Shown here piece by piece: positions 1-12,965 of a stretch of DNA of 36,019 bases (positions are counted from its first letter, which is position 1; each line of letters starts with the position of its first letter). Position numbers and translations under genes: made by a program. The stretch lies in the IMG/VR virus record IMGVR_UViG_2537561980_000006; one strand, 5' to 3'. The notes below the pieces were generated by a model. That model was not told the origin of the DNA and made no database searches. It saw nothing but the letters and a program-made list of their open reading frames with translations. The stretch is from a virus. Taxonomy: Duplodnaviria; Heunggongvirae; Uroviricota; Caudoviricetes.

Positions 1-901
1 AGCAAAAACGACTTATGGTATTGCGAGCTTCAGTCGCACTACACGGTCGTTCTGTTACTCTTTATGAGAAAGCGTTCCCGCTTTCAGAGCAATGTTCAAA
101 GAAAGCTCATGACCAATTTCTAGCCGACCTTGCGAGCATTCTACCGAGTAACACCACACCGCTCATTGTCAGTGATGCTGGCTTTAAAGTGCCATGGTAT
201 AAATCCGTTGAGAAGCTGGGTTGGTACTGGTTAAGTCGAGTAAGAGGAAAAGTACAATATGCAGACCTAGGAGCGGAAAACTGGAAACCTATCAGCAACT
301 TACATGATATGTCATCTAGTCACTCAAAGCTTTAGGCTATAAGAGGCTGACTAAAAGCAATCCAATCTCATGCCAAATTCTATTGTATAAATCTCGCTCT
401 AAAGGCCGAAAAAATCAGCGCTCGACACGGACTCATTGTCACCACCCGTCACCTAAAATCTACTCAGCGTCGGCAAAGGAGCCATGGGTTCTAGCAACTA
501 ACTTACCTGTTGAAATTCGAACACCCAAACAACTTGTTAATATCTATTCGAAGCGAATGCAGATTGAAGAAACCTTCCGAGACTTGAAAAGTCCTGCCTA
601 CGGACTAGGCCTACGCCATAGCCGAACGAGCAGCTCAGAGCGTTTTGATATCATGCTGCTAATCGCCCTGATGCTTCAACTAACATGTTGGCTTGCGGGC
701 GTTCATGCTCAGAAACAAGGTTGGGACAAGCACTTCCAGGCTAACACAGTCAGAAATCGAAACGTACTCTCAACAGTTCGCTTAGGCATGGAAGTTTTGC
801 GGCATTCTGGCTACACAATAACAAGGGAAGACTTACTCGTGGCTGCAACCCTACTAGCTCAAAATTTATTCACACATGGTTACGCTTTGGGGAAATTATG
901 A
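1..901 (+). pseudogene. tnp: IS10 transposase, C-terminal ~300 codons, reading frame broken near 329-335
   Basis: Frame from nt 3 (..EQKRLMVLRAS..) hits TAG at 333-335; transposase sequence resumes in a different frame from 383 to stop 899-901. Segment lengths fit a 402-codon ORF missing one nucleotide. Confidence 0.75.
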
Positions 902-914: not shown

Positions 915-1169
915 GATAAAGCTAGCATGCCAACGGTATACAGCGAGTCGCTCTTTGTGGAGGTGACGATTACCTAACAATCGGTCGATTCGTTTGATGT
1001 TATGTTTTGTTCTCGCTTTGGTTGGCAGGTTACGGCCAAGTTCGGTAAGAGTGAGAGTTTTACAGTCAAGTAATGCGTGGCAAGCCAACGTTAAGCTGTT
1101 GAGTCGTTTTAAGTGTAATTCGGGGCAGAATTGGTAAAGAGAGTCGTGTAAAATATCGAGTTCGCACAT
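915..1169 (-). pseudogene. tnp: IS10 transposase N-terminal fragment (85 codons), truncated at the IS junction
   Basis: ATG at 1169 (minus) encodes MCELDILHDSLYQFCPELHLKRLNSLTLACHALLDCK..WHASFI, then diverges where the other IS copy's end begins. Confidence 0.8.
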
Positions 1170-1230
1170 CTTGTTGTCTGATTATTGATTTTTCGCGAAA
1201 CCATTTGATCATATGACAAGATGTGTATCC
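1162..1230 (+). ncRNA. Predicted RNA-OUT antisense RNA of IS10 (position inferred from IS10 coordinates)
   Basis: Established IS10 biology: pOUT transcript starts ~nt 115 and runs toward the outside end, overlapping the transposase 5' end; mapped onto window coordinates, not independently detected. Confidence 0.4.
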
Positions 1231-1814
1231 ACCTTAACTTAATGATTTTTACCAAAATCATTAGGGGATTCATCAGTGCGGTGCCTGGTGCCTCCAGGTG
1301 ACGTTAACCAGTTAACAATTAACGCCGGATACAGAGAATCCACCCATAACACTGTTTTTGGTTTTAACTGTTCCGCGTGCGCTTAGCCGCATTCACCGCA
1401 TCACAAAATTCACTTTAAAAAGGGCGGCAGAGCAGTCACGGAGTAAAACTGATACCGCCAAACGTCACCAGAAAATTGATAACAGAGGGCGTTGCAGCGG
1501 GGTTGTCACTTAAGCGTATGGTCAACCTGACAACCAGGTGTCCTCAACGGGGAAGGAATAACCCCGCCATACTTACCGCCGCGCCATTTCGCGGAGTGCC
1601 ACAACCGGAAGCGCACGGCCGACGAAAATTTAACGACAGGCTATCTATGAACCAGCTACCTCGCCGTGCGCTTTCGCGTTATGGTCTGACTTTTCATGGA
1701 AATATCCTTTCAGTAAACTGTCAGTGCCGGATGCTCACCCGTGTCCGGCGCACGCACTCCACCTCACCCGTGGAGAACTCCTTAATTACCAACCTTAGCT
1801 TCGTTGGTTAGCTA

Positions 1815-7928: not shown

Positions 7929-8631
7929 ATGAGCCTTAGGTCTGAGCGTACGAAATGGGTTATGTTTTTGCCTTGTTCTAAAGAAGAAGTTGAATCGCGC
8001 CACGTTTTGGATATTGTTTTTGGCGTGCTATGTCTTGAGAAGGCCGGTATAAATCCACGAGACATATCAATATATATTGACAGCCCTAACAGGAATTTTG
8101 ATGATTTTTTTTTCATCAGCCTCGAAGTATCCTTATGCGTCAAAAGCATCAGCAGATTTCTTTAATGACTTGCGTGATAATAACTACAATAACATAGTAA
8201 TGTTTGTTACTGGTCATGGTTGCCCACAAGGACTGGATGCAAAAAATCCTATTACTCCTCATCAACTTCTCAAGGCTTTAAAAGGAGCACCTAATTTAAA
8301 CAATGCTATTGTTTATTTTGGACAGTGTTATGCAGGTACGTTCAATTTTGTTGGGGCGGGTAAAAGAAAGGATGGCGAGCCTGAGGTTGTTTTAATTGGG
8401 GCGACTAATCTTACTGAGAGTCTGAGTATAGCGACTACTGAAACGTTTCTTGATGGAGATGAATTTCCTTGGACGGCCAATATTTTTCTCCTTCATGTTT
8501 TTAAATGGATGTCAAAACCTTCTGATATAGATGGTGATGGCCGTTATACTGTAATGGATTCTTATAAGCATGCTGGTATTTTTACTAACTTTGTGAATAA
8601 AAAACAAAAACAGATATGTTTGGTGAGATAA
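7929..8631 (+). CDS. Putative clan CD (caspase-like) cysteine peptidase, reading frame interrupted at a T9 tract (8105-8113)
   Basis: Hydrophobic strand + His-Gly (NNIVMFVTGHG) and hydrophobic strand + Gln-Cys (NAIVYFGQCYAG) 37 residues apart; N-terminal strands lie in ORF 7929-8165 and the catalytic core in ORF 8077/8101-8631; losing one T fuses them. Confidence 0.45.
8105..8113. repeat. Homopolymeric T9 tract at the frame break of the caspase-like gene
   Basis: Nine consecutive T at the junction of the two overlapping ORFs. Confidence 0.9.
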
Positions 8632-8825
8632 TTAATATGCATGCAGAGTGTAATAAACTCATGGCACTGGCTTCTTCGGGGACAGGGAATTGGATAATTG
8701 ATACGACAAATGAGTTAAATTATAAAGCCAAAAAAACACAACTACAAAATTTATTGATTGCGCACCACACTCATCAAGAATGTTGGATATTAAATGCAAG
8801 ACCAGCGCAAAAAATTGAGTTTTGA
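8616..8825 (+). CDS. Hypothetical protein (62-69 aa), or frame-shifted C-terminal continuation of the caspase-like gene
   Basis: ORF in the frame of 7929; upstream frame ends at 8629-8631 just after an A6 tract (8599-8604); alternative start ATG 8637 with GGTGAG RBS. Confidence 0.35.
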   Translation: MFGEIINMHAECNKLMALASSGTGNWIIDTTNELNYKAKKTQLQNLLIAHHTHQECWILNARPAQKIEF

Positions 8826-9085
8826 CTAATCGTTATGTCAATTAATTACAATAACGACTTATCATGGTGAGCAAAAACGGTTTGCGGGAAAAGGAGAGTT
8901 AAGTAGAATTGCTGCGGGTGCTTGAGGCTATCTGCCTCGGGCATGAACACCAAAAGGCAGATAGAGAAAAGCCCCAGTTAACATTACGCGTCCTGCAAGA
9001 CGCTTAACATTAATCTGAGGCCCAATCTATGTCTCACAAATGTAGGTTAGCCTCTTACGTGCCGAAAGGCAAGGAGAAGCAGGCT

Positions 9086-9241
9086 ATGAAGCAGCAAAAG
9101 GCGATGTTAATCGCCCTGATCGTCATCTGTTTAACCGTCATAGTGACGGTACTGGTAACGAGGAAAGACCTCTGCGAGGTACGAATCCGAACCGGCCAGA
9201 CGGAGGTCGCTGTCTTCACAGCTTACGAACCTGAGGAGTAA
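9086..9241 (+). CDS. Hok/Gef-family type I toxin (51 aa)
   Basis: MKQQKAMLIALIVICLTVIVTVLVTRKDLCEVRIRTGQTEVAVFTAYEPEE: single TM helix and the conserved Hok C-terminal region; in-frame upstream extension from 9029. Confidence 0.8.
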   Translation: MKQQKAMLIALIVICLTVIVTVLVTRKDLCEVRIRTGQTEVAVFTAYEPEE

Positions 9242-9311
9242 GAGACCTGGCGGGGGAGAAATCCCTCGCCACCTCTGATGTGTCAGGCATCCTCAACGCA
9301 CCCGCACTTAA

Positions 9312-9330
9312 CCCGCTTCGGCGTTTTTTC
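9312..9330 (+). terminator. Weak intrinsic terminator downstream of hok
   Basis: CGC-TTCG-GCG short stem with UUCG tetraloop, then T6. Confidence 0.3.
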
Positions 9331-9384
9331 CGTTGATTAACTCTAGTTATTAGAGAACCGAACTTTTATTGATGGGGCAGGGAG

Positions 9385-9777
9385 ATGAAGAAACTTGTTT
9401 TAGTCGCAGGTGTAATGATTGCAACAGTAATGTTGGGAGGGTGTGCAGCAAAGGTCGATCCAGCGTTGAAAGCAGAAGCAATGAAGCCACTAACATGTAA
9501 TGATGAAAAGCAATGTGACTTTTATTGGAAACGAGCGCAATTCTGGTTGGCTAATAATTCCTCATGGAAAATTCAAACGGCGACAGACACGCTAATTTCC
9601 ACTTATAATCCCTCTCCAAATAGTCCATTCCTCGCTTATCAAGTGAGTAAAATGCCAAATGAAGATGGATCCTCAAGAATTTTCATCAAGCCTTTTTGCG
9701 ATAATATGTTTGGCTGTCAACCAAACCCCTATCAGGCAGTTGTTTCCTTTAAAAACTTCGTTAAAACAGGGCAGTAG
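9385..9777 (+). CDS. Lipoprotein (130 aa), AT-rich cargo gene
   Basis: Signal peptide with lipobox MLGG-C (Cys20); RBS GGGAG; five further Cys residues. Confidence 0.65.
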   Translation: MKKLVLVAGVMIATVMLGGCAAKVDPALKAEAMKPLTCNDEKQCDFYWKRAQFWLANNSSWKIQTATDTLISTYNPSPNSPFLAYQVSKMPNEDGSSRIFIKPFCDNMFGCQPNPYQAVVSFKNFVKTGQ

Positions 9778-12655: not shown

Positions 12656-12731
12656 GGCCCTTTAGCTCAGTGGTGAGAGCGAGCGACTCATAATCGCCAG
12701 GTCGCTGGTTCAAATCCAGCAAGGGCCACCA
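12656..12731 (+). tRNA. tRNA with CAU anticodon (Ile2-lysidine type or Met)
   Basis: Cloverleaf folded by hand: acceptor GGCCCTT/AAGGGCC, loop CUCAUAA, T-loop TTCAAAT, 3' CCA; close to E. coli ileX-type sequence as I recall it. Confidence 0.8.
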
Positions 12732-12732
12732 G

Positions 12733-12809
12733 CCGCCACTAGCTCATCAGGAAAGAGCGTCAACCCTTTAAGTTGAGTGTGCGAGGTTCGAGTCCCCGGT
12801 GGCGGTCCA
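12733..12809 (+). tRNA. tRNA with UUU anticodon (Lys-like) and unusual C at position 33
   Basis: Acceptor CCGCCAC/GTGGCGG, anticodon stem TCAAC/GTTGA, loop CCTTTAA, T-loop TTCGAGT, 3' CCA. Confidence 0.6.
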
Positions 12810-12811
12810 GT

Positions 12812-12887
<76 letters not shown>

Positions 12888-12890
12888 TAT

Positions 12891-12965
<75 letters not shown>

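What the first reader, a model, noticed from the sequence alone, without database searches (positions are those of the whole stretch)
8928..9330. hok-family type I toxin with a structured leader; the antisense partner RNA is expected but not located
The 51-aa product is a clear Hok/Gef-type peptide. Its leader contains a 9-bp inverted repeat (CTATCTGCC 8928-8936 / GGCAGATAG 8956-8964) and an in-frame upstream extension (from 9029) that could act as a coupling reading frame. By analogy with hok/sok, an antisense sRNA should be encoded opposite the leader.
Basis: partly seen in the sequence, partly recalled or inferred. Interest (0 to 1): 0.45.

Follow-up and report, generated by a model that had tools for sequence, protein, structure and literature searches.

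The report
Ordinary prophage hok/mok/sok toxin-antitoxin cassette
This is a complete, textbook hok/mok/sok type I toxin-antitoxin cassette in an E. coli lambdoid prophage, and the "missing" antisense Sok RNA can be placed on the minus strand at about 9037 to 8967, so the finding is correct but already known.

Summary
Window ~8881-9329 is a complete hok/mok/sok cassette.

- **Toxin:** hok (9086-9241) encodes a 51-aa peptide matching Pfam HOK_GEF (E 2e-23). It is 50/51 identical to K-12 HokD and 46/51 to HokW.
- **Coupling frame:** the in-frame ORF from 9029 is mok, laid out as in K-12 mokC/hokC.
- **Inverted repeat:** the 9-bp repeat is the core of the 5' "tac-stem" hairpin (8916-8975).
- **mRNA switch:** folding reproduces the canonical switch. 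Full-length RNA pairs tac 8915-8927 with fbi 9291-9304, and ucb with the mok SD. Without fbi, tac pairs with ucb and the mok SD with dcb.
- **Sok:** minus strand, 5' end ~9037, 3' end ~8967-8961 (71-77 nt). Promoter is TTGCCT (9072-9067), 17 nt, TAACCT (9049-9044).

Evidence for Sok:
- Annotated K-12 SokC, SokB and SokE all map there.
- The experimentally studied Sp5 hokW-sokW locus is 93% identical, and its mutated -10 and northern probe match these coordinates.
- The stem pairs far better on the minus strand (94% vs 73% of cells over 67 sequences).

Rfam's "sok" model actually hits the hok-sense leader. The locus occurs in 4728 of 5426 complete E. coli genomes, annotated hokD. The only unusual feature is a hypervariable patch at the Sok 5' tail.

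The parts
8881..8909 (+). hok promoter: -35 TTTGCG (8881-8886), 17-nt spacer, -10 TAGAAT (8904-8909)
   Evidence: Read from the sequence. It is 100% identical to Sp5 hokW over 8882-8909. TAGAAT is present in the 14 commonest of 29 promoter alleles among 76 phage loci, while the -35 varies between TTTGCx and TTGGCx. The consensus scan missed it because its thresholds are stricter. The transcription start near 8915-8917 is inferred from spacing and from the start of the Rfam model at 8916.
8915..9329 (+). full-length hok mRNA (about 413 nt; ends inferred)
   Evidence: MFE -169.5 kcal/mol, z = -6.8, with none of 100 shuffles as stable. Conservation across 76 phage loci starts at about 8900 and ends at about 9330, and the flanks are mosaic.
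8915..8927 (+). tac (translational activator element) at the mRNA 5' end: CGGGUGCUUGAGG
   Evidence: It pairs 13/13 with 9291-9304 in the full-length fold and switches to 8969-8975 (ucb) when the 3' end is removed. A perfect 9-nt complement, 8913-8921 / 9298-9306, plus 8922-8934 / 9284-9296, is seen (I5, I3). Across 67 distinct sequences, 97.8% of cells are paired.
   Evidence: It matches the first helix of the RF01794 consensus structure. Compensatory changes occur at 8930-8962 (A-U to G-C in 3 sequences) and 8936-8956 (C-G to U-A in 2), and 95% of cells are paired.
8969..8977 (+). ucb (upstream complementary box, the anti-SD for mok): AAGCCCCAG
   Evidence: It pairs with the mok SD region 9015-9021 in the full-length fold and with tac 8916-8923 in the truncated fold. 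Element definitions are from PMC9841398.
8986..9003 (.). 18-nt lineage-specific insertion (ACGCGTCCTGCAAGACGC) that lengthens the tip of the Sok stem-loop
   Evidence: Absent from K-12 hokC, hokB and hokE. Present in Sp5 hokW and in all hokD-type chromosomal and plasmid loci aligned, and in 68 of the 76 phage-sample sequences (window included). It forms a 6-bp GC-rich tip in the Sok fold and appears as a 16-nt loop insertion relative to the Rfam model.
8967..9037 (-). Sok antisense RNA (predicted 71 nt; 3' end may extend to 8961, giving 77 nt): single-stranded 5' tail, long stem-loop (9023-8969), U-tract
   Evidence: Annotated K-12 sokC, sokB and sokE all map to 9037 down to 8961/8962. The fold is -32.2 kcal/mol, z = -6.3. 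The same interval folds at -29.2 on the minus strand and -17.8 on the plus strand, the same asymmetry as annotated SokC and SokB. Over 67 sequences, 94% of stem cells pair on the minus strand against 73% on the plus strand. The sokW northern probe YO-592 corresponds to 9008-9037, and sokW is stated to have a 71-nt complementary region.
9044..9072 (-). sok promoter: -35 TTGCCT (9072 to 9067), 17-nt spacer, -10 TAACCT (9049 to 9044); start at G (9037)
   Evidence: Both hexamers are identical to Sp5 sokW; region 9038-9072 is 34/35 identical. The 'pro-less' primer YO-421 of PMC8621323 changes TAGGTTA to CCGGCTC, which is window 9043-9049, and that mutation unmasked HokW toxicity. The -10 TAACCT is present in 58/76 loci (TAATCT in 9), and the -35 TTGCCT in 58/76 (TTGACC in 15).
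9017..9020 (+). mok Shine-Dalgarno (GAGG), 8 nt upstream of the mok ATG
   Evidence: Read from the sequence. It pairs with ucb in the full-length fold and with dcb 9051-9054 in the truncated fold. It lies inside the Sok-complementary region.
9024..9048 (+). Sok-target hairpin (stem 9024-9032 / 9040-9048, loop 9033-9039 CUCACAA) carrying the mok start codon; its 5' arm and loop (9024-9037) are complementary to the Sok 5' tail
   Evidence: third helix of RF01794. It contains the hypervariable patch 9032-9036.
9029..9241 (+). mok reading frame (70 codons, in frame with hok, same stop codon)
   Evidence: The layout matches annotated K-12 mokC/hokC and Sp5 ECs_1245. The frame is open at 70 aa in 64/76 phage loci. 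In 9/76 a 2-nt shorter allele gives a 19-codon frame.
9048..9054 (+). dcb (downstream complementary box): UAGCCUC
   Evidence: It pairs with the mok SD 9017-9021 in the truncated and nascent folds. GCCTC is conserved in 73/76 loci. Definition from PMC9841398.
9071..9076 (+). hok Shine-Dalgarno (AAGGAG), 9 nt upstream of the hok ATG; it overlaps the sok -35 on the other strand
   Evidence: Read from the sequence. It is partly sequestered in the full-length fold (P unpaired 0.27) and more open after truncation (0.59 with the 3' end at 9290, 0.38 at 9283).
9086..9241 (+). hok toxin gene (51 aa + stop): MKQQKAMLIALIVICLTVIVTVLVTRKDLCEVRIRTGQTEVAVFTAYEPEE
   Evidence: Pfam HOK_GEF E 2.1e-23. NCBIfam Hok-family hits fall below the curated cut-off. 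PHROG 251 E 4e-33. RefSeq annotates the identical DNA as hokD. It is 46/51 identical to HokW and 50/51 to K-12 HokD (alignment; single V22A difference).
9291..9306 (+). fbi (fold-back inhibitory element): CCUCAACGCACCCGCA
   Evidence: It pairs with tac in the full-length MFE, with C9297 bulged. Direct complementarity is seen (I3, I5). The only recurrent variant inside the element falls at the bulged position (CAACGC to CAATGC).
9312..9329 (+). hok terminator, minority allele: CCCGC-UUCG-GCG followed by UUUUUU (only 3 G-C pairs)
   Evidence: K-12 hokD and most relatives have CCCGC-TTCG-GCGGG-TTTT. The window's allele is in 4/76 phage loci. The consensus terminator scan did not call it. Sequence similarity to the other terminator group ends inside the 3' arm.

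Best explanation
Window ~8881-9329 is an intact hok/mok/sok type I toxin-antitoxin cassette of the hokD/hokW lineage, carried in the early-right (replication-to-Q) region of a lambdoid prophage. The proposed mechanism follows; steps marked 'shown' rest on computation on this sequence, and the others are inferred from characterised homologues.

(1) A weak constitutive promoter (TTTGCG-17-TAGAAT) makes a ~413-nt hok mRNA. In its full-length form the 5' end (tac, 8915-8927) pairs with the 3' element fbi (9291-9304). The anti-SD box ucb (8969-8977) covers the mok Shine-Dalgarno, so the RNA is translationally inert (pairings shown in silico).

(2) Slow 3' trimming removes fbi (inferred from plasmid R1). 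The mok SD moves into the target hairpin with dcb (9048-9054), presenting the loop 9033-9039 (refolding shown in silico).

(3) Sok is transcribed from the opposite strand from TTGCCT-17-TAACCT, starting at G 9037 and ending at the U-tract around 8967-8961. Its single-stranded 5' tail pairs with the target loop and the mok start region, and the duplex extends over the mok SD and AUG. This blocks mok translation and, through coupling, hok translation. The duplex is a substrate for RNase III (inferred from R1 and from the partial RNase III/Hfq dependence of sokW).

(4) When sok transcription stops, short-lived Sok disappears while hok mRNA persists. Possible triggers are prophage induction, loss of the element, or host transcription shut-off. 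Ribosomes then translate mok across the hok ribosome-binding site, Hok is made, inserts into the inner membrane and collapses the membrane potential.

The most likely biological role here, by analogy with hokW-sokW, is a prophage-linked accessory killer that fires on induction and speeds lysis. Addiction or abortive-infection roles are not excluded.
For: Family identity: Pfam HOK_GEF E 2e-23; PHROG 'MokW-like host killing' E 4e-33; Rfam RF01794 120 bits over the leader; RefSeq annotates identical DNA as hokD, and the locus occurs in 4728/5426 complete E. coli genomes.

mok: a 70-codon in-frame ORF, the same layout as annotated K-12 mokC/hokC and Sp5 ECs_1245.

Structural switch: in the full-length MFE, tac pairs with fbi 13/13 and ucb with the mok SD. 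With the 3' end cut at 9290 or 9283, tac pairs with ucb and the mok SD with dcb. This is the scheme described for R1 in PMC9841398.

Sok position: the annotated SokC, SokB and SokE coordinates all map to 9037 down to 8961/2. The 77-nt RNA folds as a tail plus a long hairpin plus a U-tract, z = -6.3. Strand asymmetry is -29.2 vs -17.8 kcal/mol, and 94% vs 73% of stem cells pair over 67 distinct sequences.

Experimental anchor: Sp5 hokW-sokW is 93.4% identical over the mRNA, 100% in the hok promoter and 97% in the sok promoter region, with both hexamers identical. In that system HokW is toxic, sokW expressed from its own promoter neutralises it, mutating the -10 (window 9043-9049 equivalent) unmasks toxicity, a fragment equivalent to 8934-9089 rescues in trans, and a northern probe equivalent to 9008-9037 detects sokW, which has a 71-nt complementary region.

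Conservation in 76 phage loci: the sok -10 and -35, dcb, ucb, tac and fbi are conserved, and mok is open in 73/76.
Against: No transcript, toxicity or processing data exist for this exact locus; everything about expression is by homology. The sok promoter is a poor match to the sigma-70 consensus (TAACCT is 3/6), and neither promoter nor either terminator was called by the consensus scan. The hok terminator here is a minority allele with only a 3-bp G-C stem, so the 3' end, and therefore the geometry of 3' processing, could differ from the model. Chromosomal hok loci tested in the literature did not mediate post-segregational killing (summarised in preprint 10.1101/2025.08.07.668861), so a cassette can look intact and still show no phenotype. 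The Sok 5' tail differs from sokW at 5 of 14 positions, so kinetic properties cannot simply be transferred. tac/fbi shows almost no covariation in my closely related sample. Support for that helix therefore comes from direct complementarity and the literature, not from compensatory changes seen here.
Confidence: 0.93

Rival explanations
1. The cassette is an evolutionary relic. It looks like hok/sok but is silent or non-toxic in vivo, like the five K-12 chromosomal hok loci that are inactivated by IS elements, point mutations or rearrangement.
For: K-12 hokD has lost everything upstream of about -20 (relBE sits there instead). K-12 hokC, hokA and hokE are flanked by IS186 or IS150. Intact chromosomal loci tested did not give post-segregational killing. 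The window's terminator is a weakened minority allele. The gene immediately upstream carries two frameshifts in this assembly, which hints at either decay or sequencing error in the region.
Against: Every regulatory element is present and intact: both promoters, tac, fbi, ucb, dcb, both SDs, both start codons, and the Sok stem and U-tract. The Hok peptide differs by one conservative residue (V22A) from HokD, which is toxic when overexpressed, and by 5/51 from HokW, also toxic. The cassette is under visible purifying selection in 76 phage loci (pi = 0.006 in hok, 0.07-0.08 in the regulatory elements) while its flanks are mosaic.
Confidence: 0.12
2. The Rfam hit taken literally: the antitoxin 'sok' RNA is a 176-nt plus-strand RNA at 8916-9091, co-directional with hok.
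For: RF01794 is named 'sok antitoxin (CssrC)' and typed 'Gene; antitoxin'. It hits 8916-9091 on the plus strand at 120 bits.
Against: In four calibrant loci the same model hits the hok-mRNA strand and encloses the annotated or experimentally mapped Sok on the opposite strand. In L002 the hit is 502-654 (-) and sokC is 553-611 (+). In L004 the hit is 1067-1218 (-) and sokB is 1120-1176 (+). In L006 the hit is 690-845 (+) and sokE is 734-793 (-). The Sp5 hokW locus behaves the same way. The model's last positions align at the hok start codon. The stem-loop pairs better on the minus strand. The model therefore describes the hok leader, not Sok.
Confidence: 0.02
3. The mechanism is the same, but the role is addiction or abortive infection and not help with lysis. 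Either the cassette stabilises the prophage by killing cells that lose it, or it kills the host when an infecting lytic phage shuts off host transcription, as reported for R1 hok/sok against T4.
For: These are established roles of R1 hok/sok: plasmid maintenance and T4 exclusion (PMC8621323 discussion; PMC10305079). hok genes are about four-fold enriched in prophages. The same cassette also sits on IncY and IncF/HI plasmids.
Against: The only experiment on a member of this lineage found a positive effect on release of its own phage after induction, with sokW disappearing on RecA-dependent induction. Chromosomal hok loci failed post-segregational killing tests. No enrichment near defence systems was found in the preprint. 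The location here (early-right operon, same direction as hok) differs from Sp5 (right end, after the tail genes), so the hokW result may not transfer either. The roles are not mutually exclusive.
Confidence: 0.35
4. The 9-bp inverted repeat is an independent element, such as an intrinsic terminator or attenuator for upstream transcription or a protein operator, and is not part of the hok mRNA.
For: It lies about 100 nt downstream of the stop codon of the upstream gene (8825), and it is a stable hairpin.
Against: No T-run follows it; AGAAAAG follows. It lies downstream of the conserved TAGAAT -10 and inside the RF01794 consensus structure. It shows compensatory changes as an RNA helix. It is flanked by tac and ucb, which close the same hairpin in the truncated fold.
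Confidence: 0.02

Closest known systems
hokW-sokW of Sakai prophage 5 (Sp5, Stx2 phage) in E. coli O157:H7 (Takada et al. 2021, PMC8621323; locus ECs_1245)
   Same: 93.4% nucleotide identity over the whole hok mRNA. The hok promoter is 100% identical and both sok promoter hexamers are identical. It has the same 18-nt insertion in the Sok stem, the same 70-codon in-frame mok and a 51-aa Hok (46/51 identical). Both are carried by lambdoid prophages.
   Different: The Sok 5' tail and its target differ at 5 of 14 positions, including four consecutive bases at 9032-9035. The Hok C-terminus differs (TAYEPEE vs VDYESEK). The 3' end diverges after fbi. The position in the phage genome differs: here it lies between the replication genes and DUF968/RusA/Q, co-directional with early-right transcription, whereas in Sp5 it lies at the right end beyond the tail genes on the opposite strand.
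hokD (relF) of the Qin cryptic prophage, E. coli K-12
   Same: Hok is 50/51 identical. The 3' UTR including fbi is nearly identical. The neighbourhood is syntenic (hok, small ORFs, DUF968/ydfU, Q/ydfT, with dicB/DicF on the other side). RefSeq names the window's gene hokD.
   Different: K-12 hokD retains only about 20 nt upstream of the ATG. The promoter, tac, ucb, mok, the Sok gene and dcb are replaced by relBE. The window therefore holds the intact form of the locus that K-12 carries as a remnant. K-12 has the full 5-bp terminator stem.
hok/sok (parB) of plasmid R1, the paradigm
   Same: The same parts list and the same predicted conformational switch (tac/fbi plus ucb/mok-SD changing to tac/ucb plus mok-SD/dcb), and Sok antisense to the mok translation initiation region. 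The block 9044-9090 (dcb, sok promoter, hok SD) is conserved at 87-90% identity with plasmid-borne loci in Klebsiella, Enterobacter, Citrobacter and Cronobacter, some annotated DUF5431 (per my own knowledge the Mok-type annotation) or HokB.
   Different: Hok identity is low: PMC8621323 gives 44% identity between HokW and R1 Hok. From my own knowledge of the R1 sequence, R1 mok is out of frame with hok, whereas here it is in frame. Sok is predicted to be 71-77 nt because of the 18-nt insertion. The carrier is a prophage, not a plasmid.
hokC (gef)/mokC/sokC, E. coli K-12
   Same: In-frame mok sharing the hok stop codon. The annotated SokC maps exactly onto the predicted Sok coordinates. The tac hairpin and dcb-SD block are highly similar.
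   Different: It lacks the 18-nt insertion (SokC is 59 nt). In K-12 an IS186 lies just downstream and the 3' UTR diverges from the window's before the fbi region. Its Sok-tail allele is the one found in hokW, not the window's.

Membership tests
[quoted passage not shown] | Small hydrophobic Hok/Gef peptide (Pfam PF01848) | tested here: met
   E 2.1e-23, 82.1 bits against a cut-off of 22, covering profile positions 1-42/42. PHROG 251 E 4e-33. The NCBIfam Hok subfamily match is only 47.7 bits against a cut-off of 73, so that specific model is not met, although RefSeq names the gene hokD.
[quoted passage not shown] | Upstream overlapping mok reading frame, with its own SD, that runs across the hok ribosome-binding site | tested here: met
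   ATG at 9029, GAGG at 9017-9020, 70 codons ending at the hok stop. The layout matches annotated mokC/hokC. The frame is open in 73/76 related phage loci, in one of two frame variants.
[quoted passage not shown] | hok mRNA leader with the conserved structure (covariance model RF01794 at or above the gathering score) | tested here: met
   120.1 bits against a gathering score of 59, full-length model match 1-157.
[quoted passage not shown] | Long-range 5'-3' pairing (tac/fbi) that locks the full-length mRNA | tested here: met
   13/13 tac nucleotides pair with 9291-9304 in the MFE (P unpaired 0.01). Direct complementarity is seen (I3, I5). 97.8% of cells are paired in 67 sequences, with no clear compensatory change.
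[quoted passage not shown] | ucb/dcb switch: ucb pairs with the mok SD in the full-length RNA; tac pairs with ucb and the mok SD with dcb after 3' truncation | tested here: met
   Reproduced by unconstrained thermodynamic folding of 8915-9327 compared with 8915-9290 and 8915-9283. Definitions are from PMC9841398. This is in silico only.
[quoted passage not shown] | cis-encoded antisense Sok RNA opposite the mok translation initiation region, with its own promoter and a stem-loop/U-tract terminator | tested here: met
   The sequence features are present at 9072 down to 8961 on the minus strand. They coincide with the mapped K-12 SokC/B/E annotations, with the sokW -10 mutations and probe, with the fold and with the strand asymmetry. 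The transcript itself has not been observed for this locus.
[quoted passage not shown] | Sok RNA is expressed, is unstable, and its duplex with hok mRNA is cleaved by RNase III; hok mRNA is stable and is processed at its 3' end | not testable with these tools
   This needs northern blots, RACE or half-life measurements. It is shown for R1 (cited) and partly for sokW: sokW is detected and disappears after mitomycin C, hokW mRNA is stable, and there is partial RNase III/Hfq dependence.
[quoted passage not shown] | Hok is toxic (membrane depolarisation) when expressed without Sok | not testable with these tools
   Not tested on this peptide. HokD (50/51 identical) and HokW (46/51) are toxic on induction.
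hokD/hokW lineage (prophage-borne sub-group) | 18-nt insertion extending the Sok stem, plus near-identical promoters and Hok of the MKQQKAMLIALIVICLTVIVT... type | tested here: met
   Insertion at 8986-9003, shared with Sp5 hokW and all hokD-type loci aligned, and absent from hokC, hokB and hokE.

The most novel reading that the evidence does not exclude
The cassette carries a specificity label. The first ~6 nt of Sok (which are also the loop of its target hairpin and mok codons 2-4; window 9032-9036) are under diversifying selection. Nearly identical hok/sok cassettes on co-resident prophages and plasmids would then be mutually orthogonal, each Sok neutralising only its own hok, so that every element keeps an independent kill switch. 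The evidence does not exclude this. There are 18 tail alleles among 76 loci whose Hok is at least 98% identical. Diversity is pi = 0.57 in the patch, against 0.05-0.08 in the adjacent non-coding elements and 0.011 at hok third-codon positions. E. coli genomes carry a median of 2 and up to 10 copies. The recent Hok survey explicitly did not analyse Sok or mok. The alternatives are relaxed constraint in a loop and a meaningless peptide, combined with gene conversion between lineages; for example, the hokW tail equals the K-12 hokC tail.
Probability: 0.3. Interest if true: 0.45.

Novelty: already known. Interest (0 to 1): 0.15.

Why it matters
For genome annotation, this result closes the finding.

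Two practical points follow.

First, RefSeq/PGAP annotates only the hok CDS at this locus in thousands of E. coli genomes. It annotates neither mok nor sok. Rfam's 'sok' family in fact marks the hok-sense leader. Automated pipelines that trust the family name will therefore place the antitoxin on the wrong strand and make it about 100 nt too long.

Second, the window holds the intact form of the locus that survives in K-12 only as the promoterless hokD (relF) remnant next to relBE. That makes it useful for anyone studying hokD regulation.

Biologically it adds nothing new to the hok/sok paradigm, with one possible exception. The sharply localised hypervariability of the Sok 5' tail could, if it reflects selection for orthogonality, help explain how many near-identical type I systems coexist in one cell.

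Tried and rejected
- **Consensus promoter/terminator scan of 8700-9500:** it found nothing on either strand. Its thresholds (at least 4/6 per hexamer; a clean stem with a 3-8-nt loop) exclude the real but weak hok and sok promoters, the long imperfect Sok hairpin and the 3-bp hok terminator. I do not read this as evidence of absence.
- **Wrong-frame translation:** I first put the hok ATG at 9087. Corrected to 9086.
- **Local files for K-12 loci:** they were not available to the script, so I used the alignment tool.
- **Wrong guess for hokW's position in Sp5:** the unannotated gap between the methylase and the antirepressor does not align with the window. The real locus is ECs_1245 near the right end.
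- **tac/fbi covariation using K-12 hokB:** the first call failed on syntax, and in the second the region I chose cut off the tac element. The result is uninformative and I did not pursue it.
- **tac/fbi covariation in the 76 phage loci:** the helix is almost invariant, so it gives no compensatory evidence either way.
- **Same-genome test of Sok-tail orthogonality:** only two genomes contributed two loci each. One pair shares a tail and one differs, so the test is inconclusive.
- **Reading the Rfam hit as the Sok gene itself:** rejected after calibration on four reference loci.
- **The inverted repeat as a terminator of the upstream gene:** rejected. It has no T-run, it lies downstream of the hok -10, and it covaries as part of the hok leader.
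Full report
**1. What is in the sequence**

It is the core of a longer imperfect repeat, 8917-8937 / 8955-8975 (I1). The 61-nt hairpin 8916-8976 folds at -29.3 kcal/mol, z = -4.9, and none of 200 shuffles folds as well.

The 51-aa ORF runs 9086-9241; the ATG is at 9086, one base earlier than I first assumed. It matches Pfam HOK_GEF over the whole profile (E 2.1e-23) and PHROG 251 'MokW-like host killing' (E 4e-33). The in-frame upstream ATG at 9029 opens a 70-codon frame that shares the hok stop codon. The leader 8916-9091 scores 120 bits (gathering score 59) against Rfam RF01794.

**2. Where it comes from**

Window 1277-25000 is essentially identical to a lambdoid prophage of porcine E. coli ETEC1747. 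The gene order there is dicB/ydfC, cI/cro-like regulators, YdaT, DUF977, small ORFs, a 298-aa hypothetical gene, hokD, a 130-aa lipoprotein, DUF968, RusA, Q, four tRNAs, holins, an endolysin and a P27/HK97-type head module.

The 496-nt hok region has a megablast match in 4728 of 5426 complete E. coli genomes, covering at least 80% of the region in 3862. The median is 2 places per genome and the maximum 10. RefSeq annotates it only as 'hokD: type I toxin-antitoxin system toxin HokD'. No mok or sok feature is annotated.

The neighbourhood is syntenic with K-12 Qin (hokD-rem-ydfU[DUF968]-ydfT[Q]). In K-12, however, similarity starts only about 20 nt upstream of the hokD ATG, and relBE occupies the place of the leader. 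The window therefore holds the intact form of the locus that K-12 keeps as a remnant.

**3. Locating Sok**

K-12 has annotated Sok RNAs at three loci: sokC, sokB and sokE. After alignment with the window, all three map to the same interval, from 9037 down to 8961/8962 on the minus strand. The mokC ATG aligns with the window's ATG at 9029.

The minus-strand sequence upstream of 9037 reads TTGCCT (9072-9067), 17 nt, TAACCT (9049-9044), 6 nt, then G 9037.

The 77-nt RNA folds as a single-stranded 5' tail, a long hairpin (9023-8969) and UUUUCUCU, at -32.2 kcal/mol with z = -6.3.

A cis-antisense pair cannot be assigned to a strand by Watson-Crick covariation. G·U pairs can do it, because they become C·A mismatches on the other strand. 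The interval 8966-9024 folds at -29.2 kcal/mol on the minus strand and -17.8 on the plus strand. The annotated SokC (-21.6 / -10.9) and SokB (-22.2 / -11.8) show the same asymmetry. Over 67 distinct related sequences, 94% of stem cells pair on the minus strand and 73% on the plus strand. The C·A and A·C positions at 8970-9022, 8974-9018, 8982-9009, 8983-9008 and 8993-8998 are conserved.

**4. Experimental anchor**

The literature search found hokW-sokW of Sakai prophage Sp5 (PMC8621323). I located it at ECs_1245 and aligned it with the window. Identities by element are:

| Element | Identity to Sp5 hokW-sokW |
|---|---|
| hok mRNA | 93.4% |
| hok promoter (8882-8909) | 100% |
| Sok stem-loop | 96.6% |
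| sok promoter region (9038-9072) | 34/35, both hexamers identical |
| Hok peptide | 46/51 |

In that system:
- HokW is toxic on induction.
- sokW expressed from its own promoter neutralises it.
- The 'pro-less' mutation unmasks toxicity. Primer YO-421 changes TAGGTTA to CCGGCTC, which is window 9043-9049, my predicted -10.
- A fragment equivalent to window 8934-9089 rescues in trans.
- The sokW northern probe YO-592 is the sense sequence of window 9008-9037, ending exactly at my predicted 5' end.
- sokW is described as having a 71-nt complementary region, which corresponds to 9037-8967, the end of the U-run.

**5. The Rfam hit is not Sok**

RF01794 is named 'sok antitoxin', but it hit the hok-sense strand. 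I calibrated it on K-12 hokC, hokB and hokE and on Sp5 hokW. In all four the model hits the hok-mRNA strand and encloses the annotated Sok on the opposite strand. The model therefore describes the hok 5' leader. Its consensus structure corresponds to the truncated, active conformation: the tac-stem hairpin, the hairpin complementary to the Sok stem, the target hairpin and the hok-SD hairpin.

**6. The mRNA switch**

PMC9841398 gives the canonical scheme. In full-length hok mRNA, tac pairs with fbi and ucb sequesters the mok SD. After 3' processing, tac pairs with ucb and the mok SD pairs with dcb, which permits translation and Sok binding.

Unconstrained folding of the window reproduces this. 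For 8915-9327, tac (8915-8927) pairs 13/13 with 9291-9304, and GCCCCAG (8971-8977) pairs with CUGAGGC (9015-9021). For 8915-9290 or 8915-9283, tac pairs with 8969-8975 and GAGGC (9017-9021) pairs with GCCUC (9050-9054). The direct complementarities also show up as inverted repeats (I3, I5, I10).

That hairpin is closed by tac/ucb only in the active form.

**7. Comparative sample**

I retrieved 80 IMG/VR loci whose Hok is at least 98% identical; 75 of them gave a usable fragment and were aligned with the window, making 76 sequences. Conservation begins at about 8900 and ends at about 9330, and the flanks are mosaic, so the cassette is a discrete module.

Findings:
- The sok -10 TAACCT is present in 58/76 loci (TAATCT in 9). 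The -35 TTGCCT is present in 58/76 (TTGACC in 15).
- tac, ucb, dcb and fbi are nearly invariant.
- mok is open at 70 aa in 64 loci. In 9 loci a 2-nt shorter allele gives a 19-codon frame. Because the frame changes while the ORF persists, this fits the view that what matters is the act of translating mok, not its peptide.

Compensatory changes support the 5' hairpin (8930-8962, 8936-8956) and the base of the Sok stem (8977-9015, 8979-9012, 8980-9011).

**8. What is unusual**

(a) An 18-nt insertion (8986-9003) extends the Sok stem tip. It is common to the hokD/hokW lineage and absent from hokC, hokB and hokE.

(b) The hok terminator is a minority allele, CCCGC-UUCG-GCG-U6, where most relatives have GCGGG. 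It is found in 4/76 loci. Similarity to the other terminator group ends inside the 3' arm, next to the downstream lipoprotein gene.

(c) There is a very local hypervariable patch at 9032-9036, which is at once the start of Sok, the loop of its target hairpin and mok codons 2-4. There are 18 alleles of 9024-9043. Diversity is pi = 0.57 in the patch, against 0.07 (tac hairpin), 0.08 (sok promoter), 0.055 (3' UTR) and 0.011 (hok third-codon positions). The window differs from hokW mainly here, with 9/14 identity in the tail. The hokW tail equals the K-12 hokC tail. Whether this reflects selection for Sok specificity or drift plus gene conversion is open. My only within-genome test had two pairs and is inconclusive. 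The recent Hok survey states that it did not analyse Sok or mok.

**9. Verdict**

The thing itself is already known: a standard hok/mok/sok cassette of the hokD/hokW lineage, present in most E. coli genomes, with a 93%-identical relative characterised experimentally.

Confidence that it is a hok/mok/sok locus with Sok at 9037 down to about 8967 on the minus strand is about 0.93. Confidence that it is active in vivo is lower, about 0.75, because nothing has been measured on this allele and chromosomal hok loci have often shown no phenotype.

The biological role is inferred, not shown. The candidates are help with lysis on induction as for hokW, addiction, or abortive infection. One difference from Sp5 may matter. 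Here hok is co-directional with the prophage early-right operon. Read-through transcription on induction would therefore run with hok and against sok. That is a plausible trigger, but it is my own speculation.

Noticed in passing
window 8916-9091 (+); also L002 502-654, L004 1067-1218, L006 690-845, L014 35570-35744: Rfam RF01794, named 'sok antitoxin (CssrC)' and typed as an antitoxin gene, matches the hok-mRNA sense strand in every locus tested. It encloses the annotated or experimentally mapped Sok on the opposite strand. The model is really the hok 5' leader, so annotation taken from the family name puts Sok on the wrong strand and makes it about 100 nt too long.
   Followed up: yes
window 9024-9043, core 9032-9036: There is a hypervariable patch at the Sok 5' tail, which is also the target-hairpin loop and mok codons 2-4. 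It has 18 alleles in 76 loci whose Hok is at least 98% identical. Diversity is pi = 0.57 against 0.05-0.08 in the neighbouring non-coding elements. The window's allele is in 7/76 loci, and the Sp5 hokW allele equals the K-12 hokC allele.
   Followed up: partly
window 9029-9088 and the related loci L016-L095: The mok reading frame is polymorphic. In 64/76 loci it is in frame with hok (70 aa). In 9/76 a 2-nt shorter allele gives a 19-codon frame, which by position should stop at the TGA overlapping the hok start (AUGA). The frame changes but an ORF across the hok ribosome-binding site is kept.
   Followed up: partly
window 9312-9345: The hok terminator has a shortened 3' arm (GCG where most relatives have GCGGG), leaving a 3-bp stem with a UUCG loop. 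Similarity to the other terminator group ends inside the arm, directly upstream of a 130-aa lipoprotein gene of unknown function (9385-9777, lipobox LGGC, phrog_16082). Read-through from hok into that gene is possible.
   Followed up: partly
window 7929-8825 (indels near 8105 and 8598): The gene just upstream of hok is a 298-aa hypothetical protein, WP_000058713.1, in ETEC1747. In the window it is broken by two homopolymer indels: an extra T in a T-run near 8105 and a missing A in an A-run near 8598. These shift the frame 0 to 1 and back to 0. This is either assembly homopolymer error or a real pseudogene. The protein has no Pfam or PHROG match.
   Followed up: partly
window 9224-9227: Hok codon 47 is TAC within a conserved TACGAA, invariant in all hok loci aligned. 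TACG is, as far as I know, the TadA recognition motif. The Hok preprint (10.1101/2025.08.07.668861) states that hokC, hokD and hokE mRNAs are A-to-I edited to create the second cysteine needed for a disulfide. A9225 would be the edited base (Tyr47 to Cys).
   Followed up: no
window 8986-9003: An 18-nt insertion (ACGCGTCCTGCAAGACGC) is specific to the hokD/hokW lineage. It adds a 6-bp GC-rich tip to the Sok hairpin, making Sok about 71-77 nt compared with 57-60 nt for the annotated K-12 SokC, SokB and SokE.
   Followed up: yes
window 1162-1231 (+), 1422-1473 (-), 12656-12962 (+): Other Rfam hits in the window: RNA-OUT (IS10 antisense RNA, 99 bits), DicF sRNA (77 bits) and four tandem tRNAs downstream of Q. 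Identity to ETEC1747 begins only at 1277, just after RNA-OUT, so the window appears to carry an IS10 end that ETEC1747 lacks next to the dicB/DicF region.
   Followed up: no
plasmid hits, including L009 (pXD35003, IncY) and L010 (pF1200-2, IncFIB/HI1B): The same hokD-type cassette, at 88% identity and with the 18-nt insertion, also sits on an IncY plasmid and on a large conjugative plasmid. In pF1200-2 it lies between IS3- and IS4/IS421-family transposase genes, and its 3' UTR follows the K-12 hokC version and not the hokD version, so that copy lacks the hokD-type fbi.
   Followed up: no
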